Source of the DNA: Polyangiales bacterium
GTDB lineage: Bacteria; Myxococcota_A; Polyangia; Polyangiales; Ga0077539
Length of the DNA stretch: 64,000 nt
Direction: 5' to 3'
NCBI GenBank assembly: GCA_046351535.1
Contig: JAXLYG010000005.1
Location: forward strand, 229,334 to 293,333
The notes beneath the pieces were generated by a model. It did no database searches, was not told the DNA's origin, and was given only the letters and a program-made list of their open reading frames with translations. The translations under genes were made by a program, and so were the position numbers. The first letter of the stretch is position 1, and every line of letters starts with the position of its first letter. Positions 2,477 through 45,137 of the stretch are shown here, in pieces.

Positions 2477-3337
2477 TCAGTGCTTGCCGCGCTCGCCGTG
2501 GGTCTGCGCCGAGGCCTGTCGGCCGTGTGACGCGCGCGCGGGACGTCGCCGCGGGACCCTCCGCGCGCGCACGCCCTCGCGGCACTGGTTGTCTCCGTCG
2601 GGGCACTCGATGCGGACGTGAAAGTGGTTGTCGTGCGGCGAAACCCTGCGCGGTTGCAGGAGCGTGAGCGCCGCCTCGTTGATCACCGACGAGGCCACGC
2701 CGTGCTCCCGCGCGTACGCGAGGAGCCTCGCGCGCAGCGGCGCGGAGATGAAGATCCGCTCGACGCCCACCCTGCGCTCGGTGAGGAGCGCCTCGAGGAG
2801 GGCCCAGTTTCGCGCCGTGTCGAAGACGTAGCGCCCGTCGAGCGAGCGGCCGTTGGCGTCGAAGGAGACGTAATCATCGAGCTCGACGGAGGCGCCAGGG
2901 CCGCGCGCGGTCCAGAGGCGCGCGTAGAAGCCCACGTCGGCGTCGCGGCCGCTCTGGTGCGAGCGGTGATGCCCGATGGGGCCGCCGTGCTCGGCCGAGA
3001 GGTCGCCGACGGTGATCCGCACGCCGAAGCGTCGGCGCATCGAGGCGCCCACGCGCTCGAGCAGCGCGACGAGCTCTTCGGTGCCCCAGTGAAGGACGCG
3101 TCCGGGCATGAAGCGCACGCCGTCGCCCTCGGCGAGGTGACGCCCGTGGACGAGCGTCCCGCTGTTGGCCCACCCCAGCGACGCGCTCGGAGGGAGCCGC
3201 GGGCGAGACGGTCGCCGCTGCGTGGCCCTCCCGCGCGCCCGAGGGGCGTCGCCGTGCGTCTGCGCGTCGACGGAGGCGCCGAGCAGCAACGCCGCGAGCG
3301 CCGTGACCCAACCCAACGTCCGTGAAAAGCTCCGCAC
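2477..3337 (-). CDS. mepA: penicillin-insensitive murein endopeptidase (peptidase M74, MepA-like)
   Basis: Signal peptide, then the M74 metal-ligand motifs HWGTEEL, HRSHQSGRDADVGFY and HDNHFHVRIECP. Confidence 0.8.
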   Translation of the reverse strand: MRSFSRTLGWVTALAALLLGASVDAQTHGDAPRARGRATQRRPSRPRLPPSASLGWANSGTLVHGRHLAEGDGVRFMPGRVLHWGTEELVALLERVGASMRRRFGVRITVGDLSAEHGGPIGHHRSHQSGRDADVGFYARLWTARGPGASVELDDYVSFDANGRSLDGRYVFDTARNWALLEALLTERRVGVERIFISAPLRARLLAYAREHGVASSVINEAALTLLQPRRVSPHDNHFHVRIECPDGDNQCREGVRARRVPRRRPARASHGRQASAQTHGERGKH

Positions 3338-3407
3338 GGGGTAGACGCACTAGCAGAAGGGCTCAAACGCTCTCCAGTCTTCGACAACATACAAGACATT
3401 TGACAGG

Positions 3408-3424
3408 CTGCGCGAGCGTTCAGT
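3408..3424 (+). promoter_or_regulatory. candidate LexA (SOS) box 57 bp upstream of lexA
   Basis: CTGCGCGAGCGTTCAGT matches 14 of 17 positions of the myxobacterial LexA box CTRHAMRYBYGTTCAGS, including the conserved GTTCAG core. Confidence 0.3.
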
Positions 3425-3480
3425 AGCGTACCGATCTCCACGCGCCGGAGAGGCGTGTAGAAGGGACACCCGCGAGGCGT

Positions 3481-4188
3481 ATGCAACCACTCACCGAGCG
3501 TCAGGAAGCGATCCTCGAGTTCATCCGCCACTCGATCCGCGAGCGGGGCTACCCCCCCACGCTGCGCGAGATCGGCGCGCAGATGAACATCCGATCCACC
3601 AACGGCGTGAGCGATCACCTCCGCGCGCTCGAGCGCAAGGGCTACCTCCGCCGCGAGGACATGAAGTCTCGCGCGCTGCGCCCCACGACGCCCGACGCGC
3701 GCGTTCGCGTGGTCGACGGCGACGGCGAGGAGCCCGCGTACGACATCCACCTCGACAACGAGCCCGCGAACAACGTGATGAACATCCCCCTCGTCGGCCG
3801 CGTGGCCGCGGGGCCGCTCACCTTCGCGTCGCAGAACGTCGAGCAGCAGATCATGATGGACCCGTCGCTCCTCCGTGGCGCGTCGGGGGGCGAGACCTTC
3901 GCGCTGCGCGTCCGCGGCGACTCGATGATCGAGGCCGGCATCCACGAGGGCGACATCCTCTTCGTGCGCCGTCAGGAGGCCGCGAACCGCGCCGAGATCG
4001 TCGTGGCGCTCGTGGGCGACGAGGCCACGGTGAAGCGCTACTTCCCCGAGCGCGATCACATCCGTCTTCAGCCTGAGAACAAGCGCCTCGCGCCGATCTA
4101 CGTGCGCCGCACGGAGCTCAACGGCTTCCGCATCCTGGGTGTGGTGGTGGGCCTCTTCCGCTCGGTGACCTCGCTCAAGGCGACCTGA
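3481..4188 (+). CDS. lexA: LexA repressor (SOS regulator, S24 peptidase)
   Basis: N-terminal winged helix (ERQEAILEFIRHSIRERGYPPTLREIGAQMNIRSTNGVSDHLRALERKGYLRR). C-terminal S24 domain with the Ser (RGDSMIEAGI) and Lys (VKRYF) catalytic dyad and an Ala-Gly cleavage site (VAAGPL). Confidence 0.9.
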   Translation: MQPLTERQEAILEFIRHSIRERGYPPTLREIGAQMNIRSTNGVSDHLRALERKGYLRREDMKSRALRPTTPDARVRVVDGDGEEPAYDIHLDNEPANNVMNIPLVGRVAAGPLTFASQNVEQQIMMDPSLLRGASGGETFALRVRGDSMIEAGIHEGDILFVRRQEAANRAEIVVALVGDEATVKRYFPERDHIRLQPENKRLAPIYVRRTELNGFRILGVVVGLFRSVTSLKAT

Positions 4189-4856
4189 TGTTCGTGCCGC
4201 TGCTCGTCGGCTCCGCGCTCGCGGGGGCGGCCACGGTGGGCGGCCTCGTGCAGCACTACAAGCGACAGCTCGGCCCCATGACGCTCGCCGACGTGCGGGC
4301 CCTCACCACGCTCGAACCCACCCCCATCGCCCTCTGCCGCGAGGGCCTCGTGAAGATCGTCGGCACCCTCGGCTGCGACACGCCCGAGCGCAGCCTCTAC
4401 GGCGACGCGCTCGTGGCCGTTCGCGAGGTGCGCCACTACGCCACCGAGGGCCGCGGCGCCGCGGCGACGCGCGTGCTCTCTCGCGTCGACCGGTCGAGCG
4501 CGCCCTTCTGGATCGAAGACGACTCCGGTCGCATCAGCCTCGACCCCCTCGCCGCGCGCATCGACTACGAGCTCGACGAGAGCGAGCTCGAGCCCATGAT
4601 CGAAGAGCTTCGCCTGCGCGTGGGAGAGCGCGTCGTCGTGCTCGGAGACGCGCGCCGCGAGGTGACCGTCTCGCATCACCCCATGCGTCGCTCCGCCGTG
4701 CAGACCGAGCGGGGGCTGAACTTCGTCGCGCCGCCGCTGGTGACCTGGCGAACGGAGCCCGAGGTGTATCCGAAGCTGCTTCCGCCCGCGGGCTCGGCGG
4801 CGCTCTCGGCGAGCACCGTCGCGCTTGCCGTGCTCGGCGCGCTGCTGCGTCTGTAG
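4188..4856 (+). CDS. hypothetical membrane protein translationally coupled to lexA
   Basis: The ATG overlaps the lexA stop (ATGA at 4185-4188). N-terminal TM (MFVPLLVGSALAGAATVGGLV) and C-terminal TM (SAALSASTVALAVLGALLRL) flank a soluble middle domain. No known family recognised. Confidence 0.5.
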   Translation: MFVPLLVGSALAGAATVGGLVQHYKRQLGPMTLADVRALTTLEPTPIALCREGLVKIVGTLGCDTPERSLYGDALVAVREVRHYATEGRGAAATRVLSRVDRSSAPFWIEDDSGRISLDPLAARIDYELDESELEPMIEELRLRVGERVVVLGDARREVTVSHHPMRRSAVQTERGLNFVAPPLVTWRTEPEVYPKLLPPAGSAALSASTVALAVLGALLRL

Positions 4857-4919
4857 CGGGACTTCAGGGAGGGGGAGAGGGAGCGGCGGAGGCGGGCGGG
4901 AGATGTCCTGGGCGTCGCT

Positions 4920-7049
4920 TCAGGTGCCCGTGGCCGACACGTCGTCGTGCTCGGTCTCGTGCTCGTGCATCTCGCTGTCGTTGTCGTTCTCGACGCCGGG
5001 GTGACCGCCGCGACGCGCGTCGCAGAGGTTGATCTTGTAGTGCTTGGCGCGGAGGTAGAGCGTCGAGCGCGAGATGTCGAGCGCGGTGGCCGCGCGGCGC
5101 ATGTTGAAGCCCATCTGCACGAGGACGCGCTCGATGTGGGCGCGCTCGACGTCGGCGAGCGTGAGGGTCGTAGGCTCGAGGGCGCCGAGGAGCATCGCGG
5201 GGTTCTGCTGCGCGATCTGCACGGGCGTGGCGCGCTCGACGCGCGGCGGCTCGACGGGCGCGGGCTTCGCGGCGGCGCGCGGCGCGGGGGCAGGCGTGGA
5301 GATGGCGCGCGGCGCGGTGGCTTCGAGCGACTGACGCGCGCCGACGATGGCGTCGGCCGAGAGGGTGTCGCCGACGCCGAGCCACGCGCGCTCGAGCACG
5401 GTGCGCAGCTCGCGGAGGTTGCCGGGCCAGGTGTGCGCGGCGAGGAGCGACTCGGCCTCGGCGGGGAGCGCGGGCGCGTCGCGGCCGTACTCGCGGGCGA
5501 GGTCCGAGAGCACCGAGCGCGAGAGGTCGAGGAGCTCGGTCGGGCGGTCGCGGAGCGCGGGGAGCGAGACCACGAGCGCGGAGAGGCGCTGCAGGAGGTC
5601 GCTGGAGAAGCTCTTGCGGTAGGCCGCGCCGCGGAGGTCGTAGGGGCTCGTGGCGACGATCCGCACGTCGGGCGTCGTGGGCTTGACCGCGCCGACGCGG
5701 AGGAACGAGCGCGTCTCGAGGAGGTGCAGGAGCTTCGACTGCGAGCCCGCGTCGAGGGAGCCGATGTTGCGGAGCACCAGCGTGCCGCCCGCCGCCTGCT
5801 CGATGAGGCCGCGGCGCGCGCGGTCGGTGTGCGGCGCCGAGCCGGCTTCGAAGCCGAACATCACGCCGTCGAAGTCGCGCGGCGTGAGCGTCGCGCAGTC
5901 GCACTCGATGAAGGGCCCGCGGGCGCGCTCGCTCGACGCGTGGATCTCTCGCGCGACGAAGGCCTTGCCGGTGCCGCGCTCGCCCGTGATGAGCAGCGTG
6001 CAGCGCGACGAGGTCGCGAGCTCGACGACGGCCGCCGTGGCGCCGCGGTGCGCGTGCGGGCGTCGCGCGGCGTCTCCGTGCGAGGCGGTCTTCGCGGACA
6101 CCCACGCGCCGCCGACGAAGAGCGACGAGAGCGTCTCGATGAAGTGCGCGTCGGGGCGGTGGCCGTGCGCGCTGTAGAACACCACCACGCCGTCGGGGTG
6201 ACCGTCGCGGCCCACGGGCACGCCCACGGCCTCGAGGAGGCCCTCGGAGCGGTCGTTGAGCACGGTGCGGGCGACGGCGGCGTCTTCGCGGTCGAGCCCG
6301 TCGCTCCACTGCGGCGCGTGCGAGGCCCAGACGCGCGACGCGAGGCCCTGCGCGTTGGTGAGGGCGCCCCACCCGCGGCTGCCGTCGGGGCGCTGCGAGT
6401 ACACGGCCTCGCAGCGGAGGCTCTGCGAGGCGCGGTTCCACGACCAGCGCGCGGCGAGGCTCCAACCCATGAGCGTGCAGACCTCGTTGATCACGTCGCG
6501 GAGCATCTCGGGGCGGCCGTCGTCGCGGCTCATCGCGCGGGCCACGACGCGGGCCACGGCGCGCCTGCGGTCGGCCTGACGGACGTCGGTGATGTCGACC
6601 ATCTGGAGGAGGGCTCCCTGCGTGCCGGTGAGGGCGCAGGGCGTGAACGACACGGTGAACCACCCTTCGCCGCCGCGGGGGTGGCTCGCGGCTTCGAACT
6701 CCTGGAGCGACTTCGACCCGTGCAGCACCGCGCGGAGCGACTCTCGCGCGGACTCGACGGCGGCGTGATCGAAGCCCATCCCGCGACCGCAGGCGTGGGC
6801 GAAGCTGATCCCAACGGGCTCGCCGTGGTGCTCGGAGCGCTCGGCGAGGGCGCGCTTCCACGCGGCGTTGACCCAGCGCACGGTGCCCTTCGCGTCGATC
6901 ACCGCGGCGGGAGAAGGCAGCGCCTCGAGGGATGACCAGCGGGTCCGATCGGCCGTCGGGAGCGGGGCCTCGGCCTCGGAGGAGCGCTCGCCCGCGAGAC
7001 CCTCAAACTCCGCCGCGGACGCCGAACCCTCGTTGAAGATCATGGACAT
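4920..7049 (-). CDS. sigma-54-dependent transcriptional regulator family protein with N-terminal PAS and GAF domains and C-terminal Fis-type HTH; GAFTGA loop degenerate
   Basis: AAA+ sigma-54 activator core (LITGERGTGKAFVAREIH…, arginine-finger region, WPGNLRELRTVLERA) and C-terminal HTH (ISRSTLYLRAKHYKI). The start is taken at MSMIFNEGS (ATG at 7049, complement); the ORF is open up to 7145. Confidence 0.85.
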   Translation of the reverse strand: MSMIFNEGSASAAEFEGLAGERSSEAEAPLPTADRTRWSSLEALPSPAAVIDAKGTVRWVNAAWKRALAERSEHHGEPVGISFAHACGRGMGFDHAAVESARESLRAVLHGSKSLQEFEAASHPRGGEGWFTVSFTPCALTGTQGALLQMVDITDVRQADRRRAVARVVARAMSRDDGRPEMLRDVINEVCTLMGWSLAARWSWNRASQSLRCEAVYSQRPDGSRGWGALTNAQGLASRVWASHAPQWSDGLDREDAAVARTVLNDRSEGLLEAVGVPVGRDGHPDGVVVFYSAHGHRPDAHFIETLSSLFVGGAWVSAKTASHGDAARRPHAHRGATAAVVELATSSRCTLLITGERGTGKAFVAREIHASSERARGPFIECDCATLTPRDFDGVMFGFEAGSAPHTDRARRGLIEQAAGGTLVLRNIGSLDAGSQSKLLHLLETRSFLRVGAVKPTTPDVRIVATSPYDLRGAAYRKSFSSDLLQRLSALVVSLPALRDRPTELLDLSRSVLSDLAREYGRDAPALPAEAESLLAAHTWPGNLRELRTVLERAWLGVGDTLSADAIVGARQSLEATAPRAISTPAPAPRAAAKPAPVEPPRVERATPVQIAQQNPAMLLGALEPTTLTLADVERAHIERVLVQMGFNMRRAATALDISRSTLYLRAKHYKINLCDARRGGHPGVENDNDSEMHEHETEHDDVSATGT

Positions 7050-26278: not shown

Positions 26279-26341
26279 CCCTCGCGTCGCCGCTCTCGCT
26301 GCGAACTCAAATCTCTCTCAACGATCGGCTGAGCTCTCATC

Positions 26342-28288
26342 ATGGCCCTCTTGCAGATCTTCGACCCCAAGGCCCGCGCGGTCCCCATCGGCATCGACCT
26401 CGGGACCACCAACTCCCTCGTCGCCTACGTCGTCGATGGTCGCCCCGAGTGCATCACCGATTGCAACCTCTCGGCGCTCCTCCCGAGCGTGGTTCACTAC
26501 GGCCCCCACAGCGTCATCGTCGGCGACGACGCGCGCGCCCTCGCGGCGGAGAATCCCCGCGAGACCCTCGTCTCGGTGAAGCGCTTCATGGGCCGCGGCG
26601 CGGACGATCCCGAGACCCGCAGGCTCGGCCCCTACGACTTCGTCTCGCCGCGTGAGGGAGAGTCCAACACCGTGCGCTTCATGGTGCGCGGTCGCGAGGT
26701 CACCCCCGTCGAGGTCTCCGCCGAGATTCTCAAGGTGCTCAAGGCCCGCGCGGAGGATCACCTCCGCACCGTGGGCGGCGCGGTGATCACCGTGCCCGCG
26801 TACTTCGACGACGCGCAGCGACAGGCCACCCGCGACGCCGCGCGCCTCGCCGGACTCGAAGTGCTGCGCCTCCTCAACGAGCCCACCGCCGCGGCCCTCG
26901 CCTACGGCCTCGACAAGGGGCGCACCGCGGGGACCTTCGCCGTCTACGACCTCGGCGGAGGCACCTTCGACATCACCATCCTCTCGCTCGACGACGGCGT
27001 TTTTCAGGTCCGTTCGACGGGCGGAGACTCGCAGCTCGGCGGCGACGACATGGACCGCGCCGTCGCCACCGCGGCGCTCCGCGAGATGGGCGTCACGGAC
27101 CTCGATGCTGCCTCGCCGGGGCTCGTGCGCAGGGCGCTCGACGCGGCGCGCGCGGCCAAGCACCGGCTCACCGCAGAGACCTCCACCACGCTCACCATCG
27201 CGCGCGATGACGGAACGGACTTCTCCCAGACGCTCACGCGCGAGGCCTTCGACGCGCTCGTGCGACCCGTCGTCGAGCGCACCGGACCGGCTTGCAGAAG
27301 GGCGCTCCGCGACGCGGGCGTGAAGCCCGAGGAGCTCGACGGGGTGATCCTCGTGGGCGGCTCGACGCGCGTCCCGCTCGTGCGATCGTTCGTGGCCGAA
27401 CTGTTCAAGCGTCAGCCCCTCGCGGACATCGACCCCGATCAGGTCGTCGCCGCGGGCGCCGCGCTCCAGGCCGACATGCTCGCGGGCGAGGGGCCCCGAG
27501 AGGACGCGCTGATTCTCGACGTGATCCCGCTCTCGCTCGGCATCGAGACGATGGGCGGCGTGGCCGAGAAGATCCTCCCGAGGAACACCACGATCCCCGC
27601 GGGGCGCGCGCAGCTCTTCACCACGTACTCCGATCAGCAGACGGGCTTCGTCATCCACGTCGTGCAGGGCGAGCGAGAGCTCGCCGCCGACAACCGCTCG
27701 CTCGCGACCTTCACGCTCAAGGGAATCCCCCAGATGCCCGCGGGCGCCGCGAGGCTCGAGGTGACCTTCCGCGTCGACGCCGACGGGCTCCTCTCGGTCA
27801 CCGCGAAGGAGCTCACCACGGGCGTCGAGCAGCACGTCGAGGTGAAGCCCTCGTACGGACTCGAAGCCGACGACGTGGAGCGCATGCTCATGGAGTCCTT
27901 CGAACACGCCGAGGAGGACATCGCCGCGCGGCAGCTCCGCGAGCGCACCGTCGAGGCCGAGCAGGTGATCGCCGCGACCCACAAAGCCCTCTCGCTCGAC
28001 GGAGACCTCCTCGACGAGGACGAGCGCGCCGAGCTCGACGGCGCCCTCGCGGCGCTTCGAAAGGCCGTGGAGAAGGGTGACTCCACGGGCATTCACCTCC
28101 GCACCGAGGCGCTCGATCGCGCGGCCCTCCCGCTCGCCGAGCGCAGGATGAACCGCGCCGTGAAGCGGGCGATGTCTGGCCACGAGCTCCAGGAGTTCGA
28201 GCGCGAGCTCAAGGATCGGCCCGCGCACCCGCACCTCGTGGAGCCCCACGACCACGACCACGGCCACGACCACGATCACGCGCACTGA
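26342..28288 (+). CDS. hscA: Fe-S assembly chaperone HscA (Hsp70 family) with His/Asp-rich C-terminal tail
   Basis: Hsp70 signatures ([13 protein letters not shown]; [14 protein letters not shown]; [11 protein letters not shown]). The C-terminus ends [13 protein letters not shown]. Confidence 0.9.
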
Positions 28289-37397: not shown

Positions 37398-39308
<1,911 letters not shown>

Positions 39309-39465
39309 CGCGATTCTCTCCTCGTTGATGCCCGCGCTGCGGGCGTTTGTTGCGCTTGTTTTCGTGAGGCCGCGCGCAACCTAGCCATCGATCACAACGC
39401 GTCAAGAGACGTGCCAAGGGCTTTTCAAACGCAGTGAAGCCTTGACATTCCGCGCGATGCGACAG

Positions 39466-39900: not shown

Positions 39901-42900
39901 TCACTGGTGGATCATGTCCGAGAGGATCAGCGCCGCGGAGTTGTAGTTGGGCGTCCCCTGCGGCACGAGGCGGAGGTATTCGATGTAGAGCGCGCGGGCG
40001 GCGCCGGTGTTGTGGTTGTCGCGCTCGATGTCGGCGAGGGCGCGCGTGGCCTGCACGTACCACGACGGCACGGGGGTCACGCCCGCGCCGCGCGCGCGAG
40101 CCTCCTGGAACGCGCTCCGCGCCGCGCCGACCTCGCCCGCGTCGGAGAGGAGCCGACCGAGGTTGTAGTGCCAGTCGCCGTGGCGGTTGTCGTGGTCGAT
40201 GGCGAAGCGGTAGAGCCTGATCGACTCGGGCCTGCGCCCGAGGGCGTCGTCGATGTCGGCCCAGGTCGCGTAGGCGGCCCAGAAGCGCGGGTCGAGCTGC
40301 GTGGCGCGGTTGATGTCCGCGAGCGCGTTGGCCGCGTCGCCGCGGTACAGCCTGATCTCCGCGCGCACCCAGTATCCGCGGGGGAAGGCCGCGTCGAGCT
40401 CGATGGACTGCTCGGCGAGCTGGAGCGCGCGCTGCACGTCGCCGACCTTGCGGTGCGCCTCGGCGGCGTAGGCCTTGAAGTCCGCGCGCTGCGGGTTGAG
40501 CTCGATGGCGCGGTCGAGGTAGTGCGCGGCGTCGACGAAGTTGTCGGCGCCGAGGAGCGCGCGGCCCATGATGTACTGCGCGTCGGCGTTGGTGGGCTGG
40601 TCGACCACGACGGAGCGGAGCATCTGGTCGGCGTCGCCGTAGTTGCCGAGCGCGACGAGCGTGGCGGCCACGCGGTTGATGAGCTCGATGTTGGTCGGGT
40701 CGCGCGCGAGGGCCTCGCGGAACGTGCTGAGCGCCTGCGGGAGCTCGCCGCGCGCCTCGGCCAGGAGCCCGCGCGCCATCGCGAGGCCGGGGTAGTTGGG
40801 GTCGGCGTGCGTGACGAATTCGAACTCGGTCTGCGCGTCGTTGAGGCGCTGCATGCGGCGCAGCACGTCGCCGAGGGCGAAGTGCGAGCGGATGTCGCCG
40901 GGCTCGCGCTGCACGGCGATGCGGAGCTCGGCCTCGGCGCCGGCGAGGTCGCCGCGGGCGAGGCGTCCGTGGGCGAGGGCGCGGTGGATCGCGGCGTTCT
41001 CGGGGACGCGCGCGCGGGCCTCGAGGAGCACCTGGTCGGCCGCGTCGGGGCGCTGCACCACGAGGAGCAGCTCGCTCAGCGACACGTACGCGTCGAGGTT
41101 CTCGGGCTGGAGCCTGATGGCCTCGCGGAAGGCCTGCTGCGCGAGGGTGCGCTGGTCGGTGGTGGCCGCGAGGGCCTTGCCGAGCCAGTAGTGCAGGCGC
41201 CCGTCGTTGGGGTGCTCGTGCACGGCGGGCTCGATGATCGACTTGGCCTCGGTGGCCTGGTTGAGCGCGAGGCTCGACTGCGCGATGCCGATGACCGCGT
41301 CGAGGTTCGCGTGGTCGGCGCTGTACGCGTTGCGGAAGCGCGCATGGGCGTCGGCGAAGTTCCCCTGGCGGTAGAGGATGGCGCCGATGCCGACGAGGGC
41401 GGAGGCCGAGCGGGGGTCGAGCTCGAGGGCGCGTTGAAAGCGCGTCTGCGCGGCGCTCACGTGGTCGCGCATGAGCTCGATCTGCCCGGCCACGACGCAC
41501 GCCTCGGCGCGCTCGCTCACCGACGCGCCCGAGGGGTTGGCGCCCGCGCCTGCGTTCGCGGGGCGCGGCCGCGCGCCGGGCGCAGGGCGGCCGTCGCTCA
41601 CGCGGTCACGCAGCAGCTCGAGGGCCCTGTCTCGCTCGGGTTCGAAGCGCGCGAGGAGCTTCGCCAGGAGGATGCGCGCGCCCGCGTGGCGGGTCTCCGC
41701 GCGGAGCACCTCCTCGGCCTCGCGGCGCGCCGTCTCGTGGTCGCCGCGGGCCTGCGACGCGAGCGCGAGGAAGTACCGCGAGCGCGGCGACGGGTGGCGC
41801 TGCCGCCCCTGCTGCGCGAAGCGGAGCCACTGCTCCTGATCGTTGAGCCGCTCGGCGGCGAGCGTGGCGAGGTCGCGGCCCGCGGGGTCGAGCTTGGCGA
41901 GGCGGAGGGCCTCGCGCGCGTTGCCGCGCACGAGCGCGTCGGAGGCCTTCGCGAGGTTGAGGTAGCGCATGCCGGGCGGCGCCTCGGCGAGCTGCGTGAG
42001 CACCTGGCGCGCGCGTCCGATGCGCGACGGGTCGGGGCCGAAGCGCGCGGCGACGAAGTTGTTCGCGTACACGATGTACGCTTGAAGCTCCTTCACCTGC
42101 GGGACGCGCGAGAGGGCGTCGTCGAGGCGGTTGAGCGACCGCATCGCGCGCTCGTACGTGTCGTGCTCGAGCGACCGGTCGACCTGCTGCACCACGCGGT
42201 TCGCGTCGGCGAGGCGCTCGTCTCCGTGCAGCTCCTCGTCGATCCAGTTCTTGCCGAAGGCGCCGTAGGGCGTGAGCGCGAGGGCGGCGCCGCCGAGGAT
42301 CGTGACCGCCGCGAAGCCGAGGGCTCCGTACGCGAGGTAGATCGCCTTGAACGGGAGCTTGAACGCCGGGCCCTTGCTCTCGGTCTTCTTCGTGCCGAAG
42401 CGCGCGCCCTTCTCGGGCTTGTCCGAGGCCTTCTCGGGCGCCTTCGTGGGAGGCTCGAACTCGCCCTGCGGCGGGGGCAGCAGCGAGTCGGGCATCGGCG
42501 GCGCGCGCAGCAGATCGTCGCTGAGCGGCGCGGGCTGCATCGAGTTCGACGACTGCGGGAAGACGCTCTGCATCGTCGGGTCGAAGGGGTTCTCGAGCGG
42601 CGGCAGCGACGGGTCGTGGAGCGCGGCGGGGCCCTCGCTCGGGTGCACGAAGCCGAAGGAGGGCGGGTCGGCCTCGTCGTCCATGGGGCCGAGGTCGAGC
42701 TCGCCGAAGCCCGCGCCGTGCGTGGGCGGCGGCGGCGGCGCGGGCGCCGCGTCGAGCGCGGGGAACTCGGGCGTCACGGGGAACTGCGAGACGGGCAGCG
42801 CGCGCGGCGCGGGCTCGGGGTTCGCAGCGGCCGCAGCGGCCTTTCGCGCGATCACGTTGTCGGGGTCGAGCTCGCTGCGCCGCGCGGACTTGGGGCTGCG

Positions 42901-44088
42901 CGCGCTCGCGGGGAGCGCCACGCCGCCCGACAGCACCGGGAGGTCGTCGGCGTTGGCCGAGACGGTGAAAGCCTTTCGTTCGAGGCCGATGCGGCCGAGG
43001 CGCGCGCCGCGCTCGGTGGTCATCGTGGGCGAGGTCACCACGGGCGGGAGCGGGTCGGGCTCCACCGCAGGGAGCGCCGCGCCGAAGTTCGAGAGGTCGA
43101 ACGCGGCGGGGAGCGCCTCGGTGCTCGAAGGGAGATCGACGGGGTCGGGGAGTCCGACGCTGAGCACGTCGGGCAGCGCGGCCGAGGGCGAGGGGAGCGC
43201 CGCCGAAGGCACGGGCAGCCCCGCCGCGGGCGCAGGGAGCCCCGCTGCGGGCGAGGGGAGCCCCGCGGCGAGCGAGGGGAGCCCCGCGGCGAGCGAGGGG
43301 AGCCCTGCGGCGAGCGAGGGGAGGCCCGCGGTGACAGCCGACGGGAGGTTCTTCGACGACGGGATCGGGAGGTCGTCGTCGGGGCCGAGGGGGAGGTCGG
43401 CCTCGTCGATGTCGAAGTCGTCGGGAGGCAGCGTCGCGGGCTGCGAAGACGCCAGCGCGGGCGCGGGCTGCGCGGCCTTCGAACCGTACTCGGGCGTCGG
43501 GATCTTCTTGCGCGCGAAGCTCTCGATGATGGGCTCCGCGCTCGCGAGGGCGTGCGCGGGGGCGCCGGGGATCCCTGCGGACGAGGGGAAGGAGCGGCGC
43601 GCGGAGGGGTCGACGGAGCCGCTGAAATCGATCACGGCGGGCAGCTCCGCGCGCTCGACGGAGGTCGGCAGGTCGAGGGCGAAGTCGCGCGTCGCGGGGA
43701 GCGCCGCGGGCTCGGCGACGCTCGGCAGATCGAGCGAGAAATCGCGCGTCGCGGGCAGGTCGACGAGGTCCTTGGGCATCGGGAGCGACGCGTAGGGGTC
43801 GAGCGGCAGCGGGAGGTCCGCGCCCGAGCCGAGGAGCGTCGCGGGCCCCGTGGCCTCACCCGCCTTCGAGAGCGAGATCGACGGCGGAGGCGCGCCCCTG
43901 GGGACTCCCGCGGCCGGGGCGGCCTTCGCGGCCGGAGGCGGCGGCGGAGGCGCGACGGCGCCCGCTGGACGCTTCACCAGGAACGACGTGTTGCACTTGG
44001 GGCAACGCATCTGCATCCCGCTGCGGGGGACGCGGCGCTCGTCGACCTCAAAGGGGCTCTGACACTCCTGGCAGCGAACCTCGAACAT
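39901..44088 (-). CDS. large multidomain protein: N-terminal MJ0042-type zinc ribbon, Pro/Ala-rich repeat region, single TM segment, C-terminal extended TPR-repeat domain
   Basis: N-terminus MFEVRCQECQSPFEVDERRVPRSGMQMRCPKCNTSFLVK carries the paired C-x2-C zinc-ribbon pattern. It is followed by a low-complexity LP(S/A)xAAG heptad array, then a TM helix (AIYLAYGALGFAAVTILGGAALAL). The last roughly 800 aa are TPR-like Ala/Leu/Tyr-rich repeats. Confidence 0.75.
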   Translation of the reverse strand: MFEVRCQECQSPFEVDERRVPRSGMQMRCPKCNTSFLVKRPAGAVAPPPPPPAAKAAPAAGVPRGAPPPSISLSKAGEATGPATLLGSGADLPLPLDPYASLPMPKDLVDLPATRDFSLDLPSVAEPAALPATRDFALDLPTSVERAELPAVIDFSGSVDPSARRSFPSSAGIPGAPAHALASAEPIIESFARKKIPTPEYGSKAAQPAPALASSQPATLPPDDFDIDEADLPLGPDDDLPIPSSKNLPSAVTAGLPSLAAGLPSLAAGLPSLAAGLPSPAAGLPAPAAGLPVPSAALPSPSAALPDVLSVGLPDPVDLPSSTEALPAAFDLSNFGAALPAVEPDPLPPVVTSPTMTTERGARLGRIGLERKAFTVSANADDLPVLSGGVALPASARSPKSARRSELDPDNVIARKAAAAAANPEPAPRALPVSQFPVTPEFPALDAAPAPPPPPTHGAGFGELDLGPMDDEADPPSFGFVHPSEGPAALHDPSLPPLENPFDPTMQSVFPQSSNSMQPAPLSDDLLRAPPMPDSLLPPPQGEFEPPTKAPEKASDKPEKGARFGTKKTESKGPAFKLPFKAIYLAYGALGFAAVTILGGAALALTPYGAFGKNWIDEELHGDERLADANRVVQQVDRSLEHDTYERAMRSLNRLDDALSRVPQVKELQAYIVYANNFVAARFGPDPSRIGRARQVLTQLAEAPPGMRYLNLAKASDALVRGNAREALRLAKLDPAGRDLATLAAERLNDQEQWLRFAQQGRQRHPSPRSRYFLALASQARGDHETARREAEEVLRAETRHAGARILLAKLLARFEPERDRALELLRDRVSDGRPAPGARPRPANAGAGANPSGASVSERAEACVVAGQIELMRDHVSAAQTRFQRALELDPRSASALVGIGAILYRQGNFADAHARFRNAYSADHANLDAVIGIAQSSLALNQATEAKSIIEPAVHEHPNDGRLHYWLGKALAATTDQRTLAQQAFREAIRLQPENLDAYVSLSELLLVVQRPDAADQVLLEARARVPENAAIHRALAHGRLARGDLAGAEAELRIAVQREPGDIRSHFALGDVLRRMQRLNDAQTEFEFVTHADPNYPGLAMARGLLAEARGELPQALSTFREALARDPTNIELINRVAATLVALGNYGDADQMLRSVVVDQPTNADAQYIMGRALLGADNFVDAAHYLDRAIELNPQRADFKAYAAEAHRKVGDVQRALQLAEQSIELDAAFPRGYWVRAEIRLYRGDAANALADINRATQLDPRFWAAYATWADIDDALGRRPESIRLYRFAIDHDNRHGDWHYNLGRLLSDAGEVGAARSAFQEARARGAGVTPVPSWYVQATRALADIERDNHNTGAARALYIEYLRLVPQGTPNYNSAALILSDMIHQ
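43186..43332. repeat. about 7 tandem copies of a 21-bp unit (GAGCGAGGGGAGCCCCGCGGC and variants) inside the ZnR-TPR gene, encoding heptapeptide repeats (AAGLPSL)n
   Basis: Direct tandem repeats read in sequence. The last four units are nearly identical. Confidence 0.6.
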
Positions 44089-44186
44089 CCTCTGACTCCA
44101 TGGCGGCCCTCGGGACGAGTGTGCCGCGGTCGACGATGCTCTCTCGTCACGGCTCGCTTGTGAAGCGCCGTTCGATGATTGCGCTC

Positions 44187-45137
44187 TCAGCGGCAGACGC
44201 GATTACGTCCACCCTGCTTCGCGCGGTAGAGGGCCTCGTCGGCCCGTTGAAAGAGCGCCTCGGCGTCGCCCGCGTCGGCGGGGAACGAGGCCACCCCGAT
44301 GGAGATCCCGGGTTTGAGCTCGACGCCCTCGCGCTCGTAGTGGTGGCTGTTGACCGCCGCGCGGATCTCTTCGGCCACGGTCGCGGCGCCGTCGGTGTTG
44401 GTGAGGGGCAGGGCCGCGCAGAACTCGTCGCCGCCGAAGCGCGAGCCGATCCCGCGCTCGCCGACCACGCGGCCGATGAGCCTGCCCGTCTCGCCGATGG
44501 TGTACGCGCCGAAGAGGTGCCCGTGGCGGTCGTTGATGGCCTTGATGCCGTCCATGTCCATCACGAGGAGGGCCACGGGGCGCCCCGAGGCGCGCGCGGC
44601 CTCGACGAGGAGGCCGAGCTCCTGGTCGAAGCGCCGACGGACGAAGAGCCCCGAGAGGTCGTCGATGTTCAGGAGCCGCTGGAGCTGCTCGTCGTAGTCC
44701 TGCTCGATGCGGTCCATGAGTTCGAAGCGCAGCACGGTGCGCCCGAGCACGACCTTGTCGCCGTGGGCGAGGGGCGCCTCGGTGCACTTGACGCCGTTGA
44801 CGGTCATGCCGTTGGTGCTCCCGAGGTCGACGATGCTCCACGCGTCGCCGCGGTCCTCGATGCGCGCGTGGCGCCAGGAGATCCCCGCGTCGGAGAGCAC
44901 GAGCTCGTTGGTCGGGTCGCGGCCGAGGGTGGCGTTGCCGGCGAGGCGCTTTCGCGTGCCCACCTCGTTGCCCGACATCACCACCACGGCGGGGCGTCGC
45001 GCGTCTTTGAGGGCCGTGCTGAGCTCCTCACGGATGCGTCCGTCGTCGAGGGGGAGCGTGCGCAGCGACTCGGGCGCTCCGGCGCGAGCGGGCTGCGCGC
45101 CGGGTGTCTTTCGGGGACCAGCGGGTTCGTCAGGCAT
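44187..45137 (-). CDS. FHA domain-containing diguanylate cyclase (FHA-GGDEF)
   Basis: FHA domain signatures (ATLGRDPTNELVLSDAGISWRHARI… GSTNGMTVNGV). GGDEF domain with an intact RFGGDEF active site and RxxD-like I-site context. The start is taken at MPDEPAG; the ORF is open to 45221. Confidence 0.8.
   Translation of the reverse strand: MPDEPAGPRKTPGAQPARAGAPESLRTLPLDDGRIREELSTALKDARRPAVVVMSGNEVGTRKRLAGNATLGRDPTNELVLSDAGISWRHARIEDRGDAWSIVDLGSTNGMTVNGVKCTEAPLAHGDKVVLGRTVLRFELMDRIEQDYDEQLQRLLNIDDLSGLFVRRRFDQELGLLVEAARASGRPVALLVMDMDGIKAINDRHGHLFGAYTIGETGRLIGRVVGERGIGSRFGGDEFCAALPLTNTDGAATVAEEIRAAVNSHHYEREGVELKPGISIGVASFPADAGDAEALFQRADEALYRAKQGGRNRVCR

What the first reader, a model, noticed from the sequence alone, without database searches (positions are those of the whole stretch)
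3408..4856. lexA is translationally coupled to a two-TM membrane protein, a candidate SOS-controlled division inhibitor, behind a candidate LexA box
The lexA stop overlaps the ATG of a 222-aa protein with N- and C-terminal TM helices and no recognisable family, so it is co-transcribed and likely LexA-autoregulated. Small or medium membrane proteins under LexA control are repeatedly SOS cell-division inhibitors in other lineages (YneA, SidA/DidA, ChiZ-like), and none is characterised for myxobacteria. A 14/17 match to the myxobacterial LexA box CTRHAMRYBYGTTCAGS lies 57 bp upstream of lexA.
Basis: partly seen in the sequence, partly recalled or inferred. Interest (0 to 1): 0.6.

Follow-up and report, generated by a model that had tools for sequence, protein, structure and literature searches.

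The report
SOS repressor operon with GIDE-like membrane protein
The DNA-damage repressor gene lexA is fused into one self-regulated operon with a two-pass membrane protein that is a distant bacterial relative of the mitochondrial MUL1/GIDE domain, and this pairing is kept in 24 of 25 related uncultured myxobacterial genomes, which gives that protein family its first functional context; what the protein does is still untested.

Summary
A canonical lexA (3481-4188) ends in TGATG, which starts a 222-aa protein (4188-4856) with N- and C-terminal membrane helices.

The 14/17 match to the myxobacterial LexA box is not above chance on its own (15 sites found, 17.5 expected). Comparative genomics supports it. 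CTG-N7-GTTCAG lies between a TTGACA -35 and a TAGCGT -10 in 24/24 orthologous lexA promoters. All substitutions fall at box positions 4-8, and the flanks have diverged.

lexA followed by ORF2 is conserved in 24/25 genomes, down to 42% protein identity. Fifteen of these keep the TGATG overlap.

"No recognisable family" is wrong. ORF2 is a sub-threshold, distant relative of the BAM/GIDE domain (PF12483). Its middle domain is a confident OB-fold, predicted to face the cytoplasm.

The division-inhibitor idea is plausible by analogy only, and the architecture differs from all known SOS inhibitors.

A murein endopeptidase (M74) is divergently linked to lexA in 24/24 loci.

Verdict: a real, conserved, probably LexA-autoregulated operon with a new partner family. 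Its function is inferred, not shown.

The parts
3400..3405 (+). -35 hexamer TTGACA of the lexA promoter
   Evidence: A perfect TTGACA. TTGAC[A/G/C] is conserved in all aligned orthologous upstream regions while the flanks diverge. The strict consensus scanner reported no promoter here because the -10 is weak.
3408..3423 (+).
   Evidence: It is the only CTG-N7-GTTCAG in the 64-kb window. The motif is present at the lexA promoter in 24/24 loci. The 16-mer is identical in 16 loci, has 1 change in 3 and 2 changes in 5. All changes fall at positions 4-8, so CTG and GCGTTCAG are invariant. It matches the EMSA-tested M. xanthus box at 14/17 (PMC9705874).
3424..3429 (+). -10-like hexamer TAGCGT, 18 nt after the -35
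   Evidence: TA[G/C][G/C]GT is conserved in the orthologous promoters. Only T1, A2 and T6 match the consensus, so this assignment is inferred.
3481..4188 (+). lexA, 235 aa, canonical self-cleaving SOS repressor
   Evidence: TIGR00498 E=4e-61, PF01726 and PF00717. The cleavage site and the Ser/Lys dyad align with PDB LexA structures.
4186..4190 (+). TGATG stop/start overlap (translational coupling junction)
   Evidence: Read directly from the sequence. The identical overlap occurs in 15 of 25 related loci, with an AGG/GGA-rich stretch 8-12 nt upstream.
4188..4856 (+). ORF2, 222 aa, two-TM BAM/GIDE-like protein
   Evidence: 51 homologues, nearly all 218-223 aa. Mean column identity is 70%, and M1, F2 and P4 are invariant. 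dN/dS is 0.07 against the closest relative. AlphaFold pLDDT is 78 overall and about 90 in the core.
4197..4253 (+). TM helix 1 (residues about 4-22)
   Evidence: Hydropathy and AlphaFold helix 3-28. There are no K/R residues before it and 3.0 K+R on average just after it, which predicts an N-out orientation.
4272..4775 (+). Soluble middle domain (residues 29-196): a short helix plus an OB-fold beta-barrel with extensions; acidic (pI 5.2); predicted cytoplasmic
4788..4850 (+). TM helix 2 (residues about 201-221), preceded by the invariant TWRTEPEVYP motif
2477..3337 (-). Divergent neighbour: Peptidase_M74 (MepA-like murein endopeptidase) with a signal-peptide-like N-terminus. It is conserved context, not shown to be co-regulated.
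   Evidence: PF03411 E=2.9e-21. It lies divergent from lexA in 24/24 lexA-bearing loci.

Best explanation
This is a conserved two-gene SOS operon.

SHOWN from sequence and comparison:
- A canonical LexA repressor gene is followed, usually with a TGATG stop/start overlap, by a 222-aa protein with two membrane helices.
- Its middle domain is an OB-fold related to the BAM/GIDE domain.
- The single promoter carries an invariant CTG-N7-GTTCAG element between its -35 and -10 hexamers.

INFERRED:
- LexA binds that element and blocks RNA polymerase, so both genes are autoregulated.
- After DNA damage, RecA-stimulated LexA self-cleavage lifts repression. ORF2 then rises together with new LexA, in roughly fixed proportion because of the coupling.
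- ORF2 inserts in the inner membrane as a helical hairpin, with both tips in the periplasm and the acidic OB domain in the cytoplasm.

MOST LIKELY ROLE (analogy only):
- ORF2 is a membrane-anchored SOS effector that delays septation or septal wall synthesis while DNA is repaired. It would act through its membrane hairpin and/or OB domain on a divisome component.
- It would be switched off again when LexA re-accumulates.

My confidence is about 0.85 for the operon and the LexA-operator part, and about 0.3 for the division-checkpoint role. The score given is for the whole chain.
For: Operon:
- The stop/start overlap is read.
- lexA lies immediately upstream on the same strand in 24/25 genome loci, down to 42% ORF2 identity. 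The overlap is kept in 15 loci and the gap is 25 nt or less in 5 more.
- The gene downstream of ORF2 is not conserved, and in the window it is convergent.

Operator:
- It is a footprint in the promoter spacer of 24/24 orthologues, with CTG and GCGTTCAG invariant. Changes occur only at positions 4-8, the positions that are degenerate in the EMSA-verified M. xanthus box (PMC9705874).
- Seven genomes carry a second, inverted copy 10 nt downstream.
- Outgroup lexA promoters carry GAAC-N4-GTTCAG at the same position.

Protein:
- The gene is real and under purifying selection.
- The fold is predicted with confidence and is an OB-fold.
- It is related to GIDE.

lexA linkage is specific to this subfamily. 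The nearest outgroup relatives, P0057 and P0059, are not next to lexA.

Analogy: genes next to lexA repeatedly encode membrane-bound SOS division inhibitors, namely YneA, SosA, ChiZ and DivS (PMC6851548). From my own knowledge, Pseudomonas has a lexA-sulA operon.
Against: - There is no experimental or expression data. All carriers are uncultured MAGs.
- The architecture does not fit known SOS membrane inhibitors. ORF2 has 222 aa, two TM helices, no LysM domain and a large domain predicted to be cytoplasmic.
- Tight coupling to lexA implies appreciable basal synthesis, which is awkward for a division inhibitor.
- In the most divergent loci (L023, L025) ORF2 has its own promoter-like GCGCACTACAAT. 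In L024 it is unlinked from lexA and has no box.
- The M. xanthus lexA mutant is not filamentous, and its LexA regulon holds no division genes (PMC9705874).
- No second box was found in the window. However, the part of the window sampled holds no other SOS genes either, so the box's regulon-wide use could not be checked.
Confidence: 0.3

Rival explanations
1. ORF2 is an SOS-induced envelope or membrane-maintenance factor, not a division inhibitor. It is co-induced with LexA and stabilises or remodels the inner membrane or cell wall during damage-induced growth without division. This would resemble E. coli lexA-dinF or the SOS-envelope link of Caulobacter HigX.
For: - The neighbourhood is envelope-rich. 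An M74 murein endopeptidase lies divergent from lexA in 24/24 loci.
- In outgroup Polyangia, lexA is followed by DUF4398 in all 3 loci examined, and by an OmpA-like gene as well in 2 of them.
- Distant relatives are fused to LemA membrane proteins.
- SOS-envelope coupling has precedent (PMC13384398). The lexA-dinF operon is from my own knowledge.
Against: - There is no enzymatic or transport domain, and the OB domain is predicted cytoplasmic.
- Nothing links the M74 gene's regulation to the box. The box sits about 70 nt upstream of the M74 start codon and beyond separate conserved motifs.
Confidence: 0.25
2. ORF2 is a stoichiometric partner that modulates the SOS switch itself. A membrane-anchored OB-fold protein would bind LexA, its cleavage fragments or RecA, and so tune induction or recovery, in the way RecX or DinI act on RecA.
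For: - Translational coupling by TGATG, conserved in 15/25 loci, is typical of proteins made in fixed ratio with a partner.
- The domain is predicted to face the cytoplasm, where LexA and RecA are.
- The lexA link is specific to this subfamily.
Against: - The domain is acidic (pI 5.2), so DNA binding is unlikely.
- The coupling is lost in four loci and the linkage in one.
- No complex prediction could be run.
Confidence: 0.15
3. ORF2 is a passenger gene. It is a general BAM/GIDE-type membrane protein that landed downstream of lexA in the ancestor of this clade and has stayed by inertia, with no SOS-specific role.
For: - All carriers form one clade of Polyangiales-like MAGs, so the 24 loci are not independent.
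- Outgroup relatives live in unrelated contexts.
- L024 has lost the linkage.
Against: - The linkage survives while ORF2 identity falls to 42%, the intergenic DNA is fully diverged and the downstream gene is replaced.
- The exact overlap is kept in 15 loci.
Confidence: 0.15
4. The conserved spacer element is not a LexA operator. It would be a site for another regulator, or a promoter-intrinsic element.
For: - The 14/17 match is at chance level.
- No second copy was found next to another SOS gene.
- The exact 16-mer is common in unrelated metagenomic DNA.
Against: - Spacer sequence is normally free to vary. Here 11 of 16 positions are invariant across 24 genomes, and the variable positions are those degenerate in the verified M. 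xanthus box (PMC9705874).
- lexA autoregulation is near-universal.
- Outgroups carry a GAAC-N4-GTTC-type LexA box in the same slot.
Confidence: 0.1

Closest known systems
Gram-positive lexA-adjacent SOS division inhibitors (YneA, SosA, ChiZ, DivS) and Caulobacter SidA/DidA
   Same: They are membrane-anchored and lack any enzymatic domain. The Gram-positive inhibitors (YneA, SosA, ChiZ, DivS) are encoded next to lexA and are under LexA control, as is inferred here. Synteny with lexA has been used to predict such inhibitors (PMC6851548).
   Different: The Gram-positive inhibitors are divergently transcribed from lexA, not co-transcribed with it. All of these inhibitors are small (29-165 aa; sizes from my own knowledge) and single-pass, with extracytoplasmic tails and often a LysM domain. 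ORF2 has 222 aa, two TM helices and a predicted cytoplasmic OB-fold, with no LysM domain and no sequence similarity.
lexA-sulA operon of Pseudomonas and lexA-dinF operon of E. coli (own knowledge, not tested here)
   Same: In both, a second gene lies downstream of lexA in one LexA-autoregulated transcript. One encodes a division inhibitor and the other a membrane protein.
   Different: ORF2 has no SulA or MATE domain hit. The overlap-type coupling and the partner family are different.
BAM/GIDE domain (Pfam PF12483) of MUL1/MAPL and its prokaryotic homologues
   Same: The TM-domain-TM layout is the same, and the prokaryotic forms lack the RING domain (PMC4457424). Members give consistent weak hits to the same part of the Pfam profile. 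hhalign gives 95% probability to a protein that passes the Pfam threshold.
   Different: The window protein scores 12.9 bits against a cut-off of 23.6, so it is a sister or outlier family and not a Pfam member. No prokaryotic BAM/GIDE protein has an assigned function, and none has been linked to lexA (PMC4457424).
Myxococcus xanthus LexA box CTRHAMRYBYGTTCAGS
   Same: The CT...GTTCAG frame and its length are the same, the site lies at the lexA promoter, and it is an imperfect palindrome. The M. xanthus box was verified by gel shift (PMC9705874).
   Different: Three positions depart from the consensus: G for A5, A for Y8 and T for S17. The left half (GCGC) is far from GAAC. The lineage consensus derived here is CTG-N5-GCGTTCAG.

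Membership tests
LexA repressor (TIGR00498) | N-terminal LexA winged-helix DNA-binding domain plus C-terminal S24 peptidase domain, scoring above the equivalog cut-off | tested here: met
   206 bits against a cut-off of 111. PF01726 E=1.7e-27 and PF00717 E=1.3e-29.
LexA repressor (TIGR00498) | Ala-Gly cleavage site and Ser/Lys catalytic dyad | tested here: met
   VAAGP, GDSM and VKR align with T. maritima and E. coli LexA structures.
LexA repressor (TIGR00498) | Binds an operator in its own promoter (autoregulation) | not testable with these tools
   Only the conserved candidate operator can be shown. Binding needs an EMSA.
Myxobacterial LexA box | Match to CTRHAMRYBYGTTCAGS beyond chance | tested here: not met
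   The match is 14/17. The window holds 15 such sites against 17.5 expected.
Myxobacterial LexA box | Conservation at orthologous SOS promoters, with variation confined to the degenerate positions | tested here: met
   Present in 24/24 lexA promoters. Substitutions occur only at positions 4-8.
Myxobacterial LexA box | Presence upstream of other SOS genes (recA, uvrA, imuAB-dnaE2) in the same genome | tested here: inconclusive
   There is no other copy in the window, but the sampled part of the window holds no other SOS genes. The metagenome scan was uninformative.
BAM/GIDE (PF12483) | Score above Pfam's gathering threshold | tested here: not met
   12.9 bits against 23.6 for the window protein. 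35/36 family members hit below threshold, with a best E of 1.4e-5.
BAM/GIDE (PF12483) | Profile-level homology to bona fide members | tested here: met
   The family profile finds the GIDE+LemA proteins P0068 (E=5e-16) and P0073 (E=1e-13). These score 36.9 and 45.5 bits on PF12483. hhalign gives 95.2% probability over 133 columns.
BAM/GIDE (PF12483) | Domain flanked by two transmembrane helices | tested here: met
   layout as described in PMC4457424.
SOS membrane division inhibitors (YneA/SosA/ChiZ/DivS/SidA/DidA) | LexA- or DNA-damage-dependent expression | not testable with these tools
   Inferred from the shared promoter with a candidate operator. No expression data are available.
SOS membrane division inhibitors (YneA/SosA/ChiZ/DivS/SidA/DidA) | Small single-pass membrane protein with an extracytoplasmic C-terminus, often with LysM | tested here: not met
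   222 aa, two TM helices, no LysM hit, and a middle domain predicted cytoplasmic by the positive-inside rule.
SOS membrane division inhibitors (YneA/SosA/ChiZ/DivS/SidA/DidA) | Overproduction blocks septation | not testable with these tools
   Needs an experiment.
SulA (cytoplasmic FtsZ inhibitor) | SulA/RecA-like fold or a Pfam SulA hit | tested here: not met
   No such hit in Pfam or NCBIfam. The predicted fold is an OB-barrel.
Anti-phage defence effectors (PADLOC) | Match to any defence-system model | tested here: not met
   No families hit by ORF2. PHROGs gives only a 13-bit hit to the TM helix.

The most novel reading that the evidence does not exclude
A prokaryotic BAM/GIDE-type protein is a LexA-controlled DNA-damage checkpoint effector. 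It would be a new, structurally distinct family of SOS division or envelope inhibitor: a two-TM hairpin with a cytoplasmic OB-fold. That would give the first function for the bacterial relatives of the MUL1/MAPL intermembrane domain, and the first SOS checkpoint protein in Myxococcota.
Probability: 0.2. Interest if true: 0.7.

Novelty: new variant of a known kind. Interest (0 to 1): 0.45.

Why it matters
SOS-linked division and envelope control is known in a handful of lineages, and each uses an unrelated small protein. None is known in Myxococcota, where the one studied LexA regulon (M. xanthus) is small and holds no division genes (PMC9705874).

Prokaryotic BAM/GIDE proteins are widespread, but I found no assigned function for any of them (PMC4457424). 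A subfamily locked into the lexA operon offers a concrete, testable context for the domain: DNA damage.

The work also defines the lineage's LexA operator as CTG-N5-GCGTTCAG. That motif can be used to predict the SOS regulon of these uncultured Polyangiales.

If ORF2 turns out to be a passenger gene, the finding reduces to an ordinary autoregulated lexA.

Tried and rejected
- The consensus match as evidence. The 14/17 match is at chance level and was replaced by the phylogenetic footprint.
- The strict sigma-70 and terminator scan of 3200-5100 found nothing, because the -10 matches only 3/6.
- Searching the window for further boxes gave none (GCTGCGCGAGCGTTCAGT with 3 or fewer mismatches, and CTG-N7-GTTCAG). 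This is uninformative, because the ten large genes sampled between 13.5 and 59 kb are housekeeping genes.
- The metagenome scan with the exact 16-mer gave 120+ hits. Only 2 were lexA promoters and the rest were unrelated contexts, so it told nothing about other SOS genes.
- A PDB sequence search with the family profile gave no hit.
- ORF2 gave nothing useful in NCBIfam, PADLOC or PHROGs.
- Nearest outgroup relatives (P0057, P0059) were checked for lexA linkage. There is none, so the link is specific to this subfamily.
- L024 was checked for a box in front of its unlinked ORF2 copy. None was convincing.
- 5'-UTR hairpins upstream of lexA have z-scores of -1.5 to +0.1 and are not distinguishable from GC-rich background.
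- Literature searches found no functional study of a bacterial BAM/GIDE protein.
- A sigma-54 or sigma-70 reading of the extra conserved intergenic blocks, attempted by eye, was not convincing. They are left unexplained.
Full report
**What is in the sequence.** The + strand carries a 235-aa ORF at 3481-4188 and a 222-aa ORF at 4188-4856. The TGA of the first shares its last base with the ATG of the second (TGATG). The first ORF is a canonical LexA. It matches TIGR00498 at E=4e-61, above the equivalog cut-off, and carries the LexA_DNA_bind and Peptidase_S24 domains. Its Ala-Gly cleavage motif, GDSM serine and VKR lysine align with solved LexA structures. The second ORF is hydrophobic only at its two ends. 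AlphaFold models it as helix 3-28, a beta-rich core and helix 201-221, with pLDDT 78 overall and about 90 in the core. The next gene downstream is a convergent sigma-54 activator, so lexA and ORF2 form a two-gene unit.

**The candidate LexA box.** CTGCGCGAGCGTTCAGT at 3408-3424 does match the published Myxococcus consensus at 14 of 17 positions. That level of match is expected 17.5 times in this window and was found 15 times. As read, it is therefore not evidence. The evidence comes from comparison.

- I fetched 25 genomic loci encoding ORF2 relatives and extracted the DNA upstream of their lexA genes.
- The block TTGAC(A/G/C)-GG-CTGnnnnnGCGTTCAG-TA(G/C)(G/C)GT stands out as an island in intergenic regions that are otherwise unalignable. 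Mean column identity is 38%.
- The 16-mer is identical in 16 loci and has one or two changes in 8. Every change falls at positions 4-8.
- Those are positions that the EMSA-verified M. xanthus consensus leaves degenerate (PMC9705874).
- The element fills the spacer between a perfect -35 (3400-3405) and a weak -10 (3424-3429). Promoter function alone does not constrain sequence there, and a bound repressor at that position would exclude RNA polymerase.
- Seven genomes add a second, inverted CTG-N7-GTTCAG 10 nt downstream.
- Three outgroup Polyangia lexA genes were examined. Two carry GAAC-N4-GTTCAG in the same slot and the third keeps only the GTTCAG half.

I could not show the box in front of other SOS genes. 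The window has no other copy but also no other SOS gene among those sampled. A metagenome scan with the exact 16-mer returned almost only unrelated DNA.

**Conservation of the pairing.** lexA lies immediately upstream of the ORF2 homologue, on the same strand, in 24 of 25 loci. ORF2 identity across these falls from 98% to 42%. The junctions are as follows.

| Junction between lexA and ORF2 | Loci |
|---|---|
| TGATG overlap retained | 15 |
| Gap of 4-25 nt | 5 |
| Gap of 42-147 nt | 4 |
| No lexA upstream (L024) | 1 |

Two of the four loci with wide gaps have a promoter-like GCGCACTACAAT in front of ORF2. L024 has lost lexA altogether and shows no box. The gene after ORF2 is not conserved. The closest relatives outside the 222-aa family (P0057, P0059) are not near lexA. 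The linkage is therefore a derived trait of this subfamily. All carriers are MAGs labelled Polyangiales, Myxococcota or Deltaproteobacteria, so the loci are phylogenetically related and are not independent observations. The window itself is 98-99% identical to a Myxococcota MAG contig.

**What ORF2 is.** It is a real gene. It has 51 homologues, nearly all 218-223 aa long. The first residues are invariant and the juxtamembrane motifs HYRxQLGPMT and TWRTEPEVYP are conserved. dN/dS is 0.07 against the nearest relative. Ratios for distant pairs are inflated by GC3 saturation.

- The window protein gives only a 12.9-bit hit to Pfam GIDE (cut-off 23.6).
- However, 35 of 36 family members hit the same part of that profile, with a best E of 1.4e-5.
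- A profile search of 1.84 billion representatives found 335 relatives, only 12 of them below 1e-30.
- These include roughly 750-aa GIDE+LemA fusion proteins that pass Pfam's GIDE threshold.
- hhalign links the family to one of them at 95% probability over 133 columns.

ORF2 is thus a divergent sister of the BAM/GIDE domain, with the same TM-domain-TM layout described for MUL1/MAPL and its prokaryotic homologues (PMC4457424). I found no functional study of a bacterial member.

**How it probably works.** The shown parts are the operon structure, the conserved promoter element and the protein architecture. The inferred parts are these: LexA represses the operon through the spacer element, DNA damage de-represses it, and ORF2 is made in step with LexA and sits in the inner membrane.

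For the function I commit to an SOS effector that delays septation or septal wall synthesis, at about 0.3. The reasons are that genes next to lexA repeatedly encode membrane-bound division inhibitors (PMC6851548; PMC9578287) and that ORF2 has no catalytic or transport domain. The counter-arguments are serious.

- The size, the two helices and the cytoplasmic OB domain are unlike any known SOS inhibitor.
- Tight coupling to lexA implies basal expression.
- M. xanthus shows no LexA-dependent filamentation (PMC9705874).

Three rivals remain open: an envelope-maintenance role (0.25), a stoichiometric modulator of LexA or RecA (0.15) and a passenger gene (0.15).

**Context worth noting.** A Peptidase_M74 (MepA-like murein endopeptidase, 2477-3337, minus strand) is divergent from lexA in all 24 lexA-bearing loci. 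This recalls the divergent lexA neighbours of Gram-positive bacteria, one of which (ChiZ) was reported to be a wall hydrolase (PMC6851548). Two further invariant blocks lie between it and the lexA -35 and are unexplained. In outgroup Polyangia, lexA is instead followed by DUF4398 in all three loci examined, and by an OmpA-like gene as well in two of them. Envelope genes beside lexA may therefore be a wider theme in this class.

**Verdict.** This is a new variant of a known kind, namely a lexA-linked SOS membrane protein drawn from a protein family not previously tied to the SOS response. Interest is moderate.

Noticed in passing
window 2477-3337 (-): A Peptidase_M74 (MepA-like, penicillin-insensitive murein endopeptidase) with a signal-peptide-like N-terminus is transcribed divergently from lexA. 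The arrangement is conserved in 24/24 lexA-bearing related loci. By position it parallels the divergent lexA neighbours of Gram-positive bacteria (yneA, sosA, chiZ).
   Followed up: partly
window 3351-3356 (TAGCAG) and 3374-3386 (CCA-N7-GACA): Two further blocks are conserved in all 19 aligned M74-lexA intergenic regions (invariant columns give TAnCA in the first block and A...G.C in the second). They lie upstream of the lexA -35. They may be the M74 promoter (TGnTA on the minus strand, close to its GTG start, possibly a leaderless transcript) or another regulator's site. Unexplained.
   Followed up: partly
L008 3232-3247, L009, L012, L013, L015, L016, L017 (also L056, L071): One sub-clade carries a second, inverted CTG-N7-GTTCAG exactly 10 nt (9 nt in L015 and L017) downstream of the first, so the lexA promoter has two operators. 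CTGAAC is conserved although the CTG...CAG ends could also pair as a hairpin.
   Followed up: partly
L154, L155, L156 (lexA at 4001 in each): Outgroup Polyangia LexA proteins (56-59% identical) are followed by DUF4398 in all three loci. An OmpA-like gene follows as well in L154 and L156. None has ORF2 or M74. L154 and L155 carry TTGAC..GAAC-N4-GTTCAG in the promoter spacer, a Cheo-box-like palindrome. L156 keeps only the GTTCAG half.
   Followed up: partly
L028 7342-8265, L029 7112-8035, L025 about 4666-5559: In the most divergent loci a third co-directional ORF of about 300 aa overlaps the end of ORF2 (by 4 nt in L028 and L029). The L028 and L029 products have no Pfam hit; the L025 ORF is known only from ORF listing. 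It is absent from the window.
   Followed up: no
L023 3907-4000, L025 3856-4000, L024 3960-4000: The distant sub-clade has a conserved GCGCACTACA(A/C)T immediately upstream of ORF2, which looks like its own -10. In L024 the gene is unlinked from lexA and starts with GTG.
   Followed up: partly
P0068, P0073 and about 40 other hits: Many distant relatives are 700-830-aa proteins with two GIDE-like stretches. The two that were scanned (P0068, P0073) also carry a C-terminal LemA domain. This architecture may bear on what bacterial BAM/GIDE domains do.
   Followed up: no
L034, L046, L047, L053, L055, L088, L090 and others; L058, L078, L098, L122, L136-L138: The exact 16-mer CTGCGCGAGCGTTCAG recurs in unrelated metagenome contigs within two repeated contexts: 'aagctgtactacCTGCGCGAGCGTTCAGgcaagtc' and '...GTTCAGgaatgtccc'. 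These are probably conserved coding or RNA elements of other organisms.
   Followed up: no
window 3440-3461: A GC-rich hairpin (CACGCGCC...GGCGTGT) lies in the lexA 5' leader just before a GAAGGGA stretch. Hairpins of different sequence occupy the same place in close relatives, but the folding z-scores are unremarkable (-1.5 to +0.1).
   Followed up: yes
window 26333-28285 (+) and 37401-39380 (-): Two full-length Hsp70/DnaK paralogues lie about 9 kb apart. A 1433-aa zinc-ribbon plus TPR protein lies at 39904-44202.
   Followed up: no
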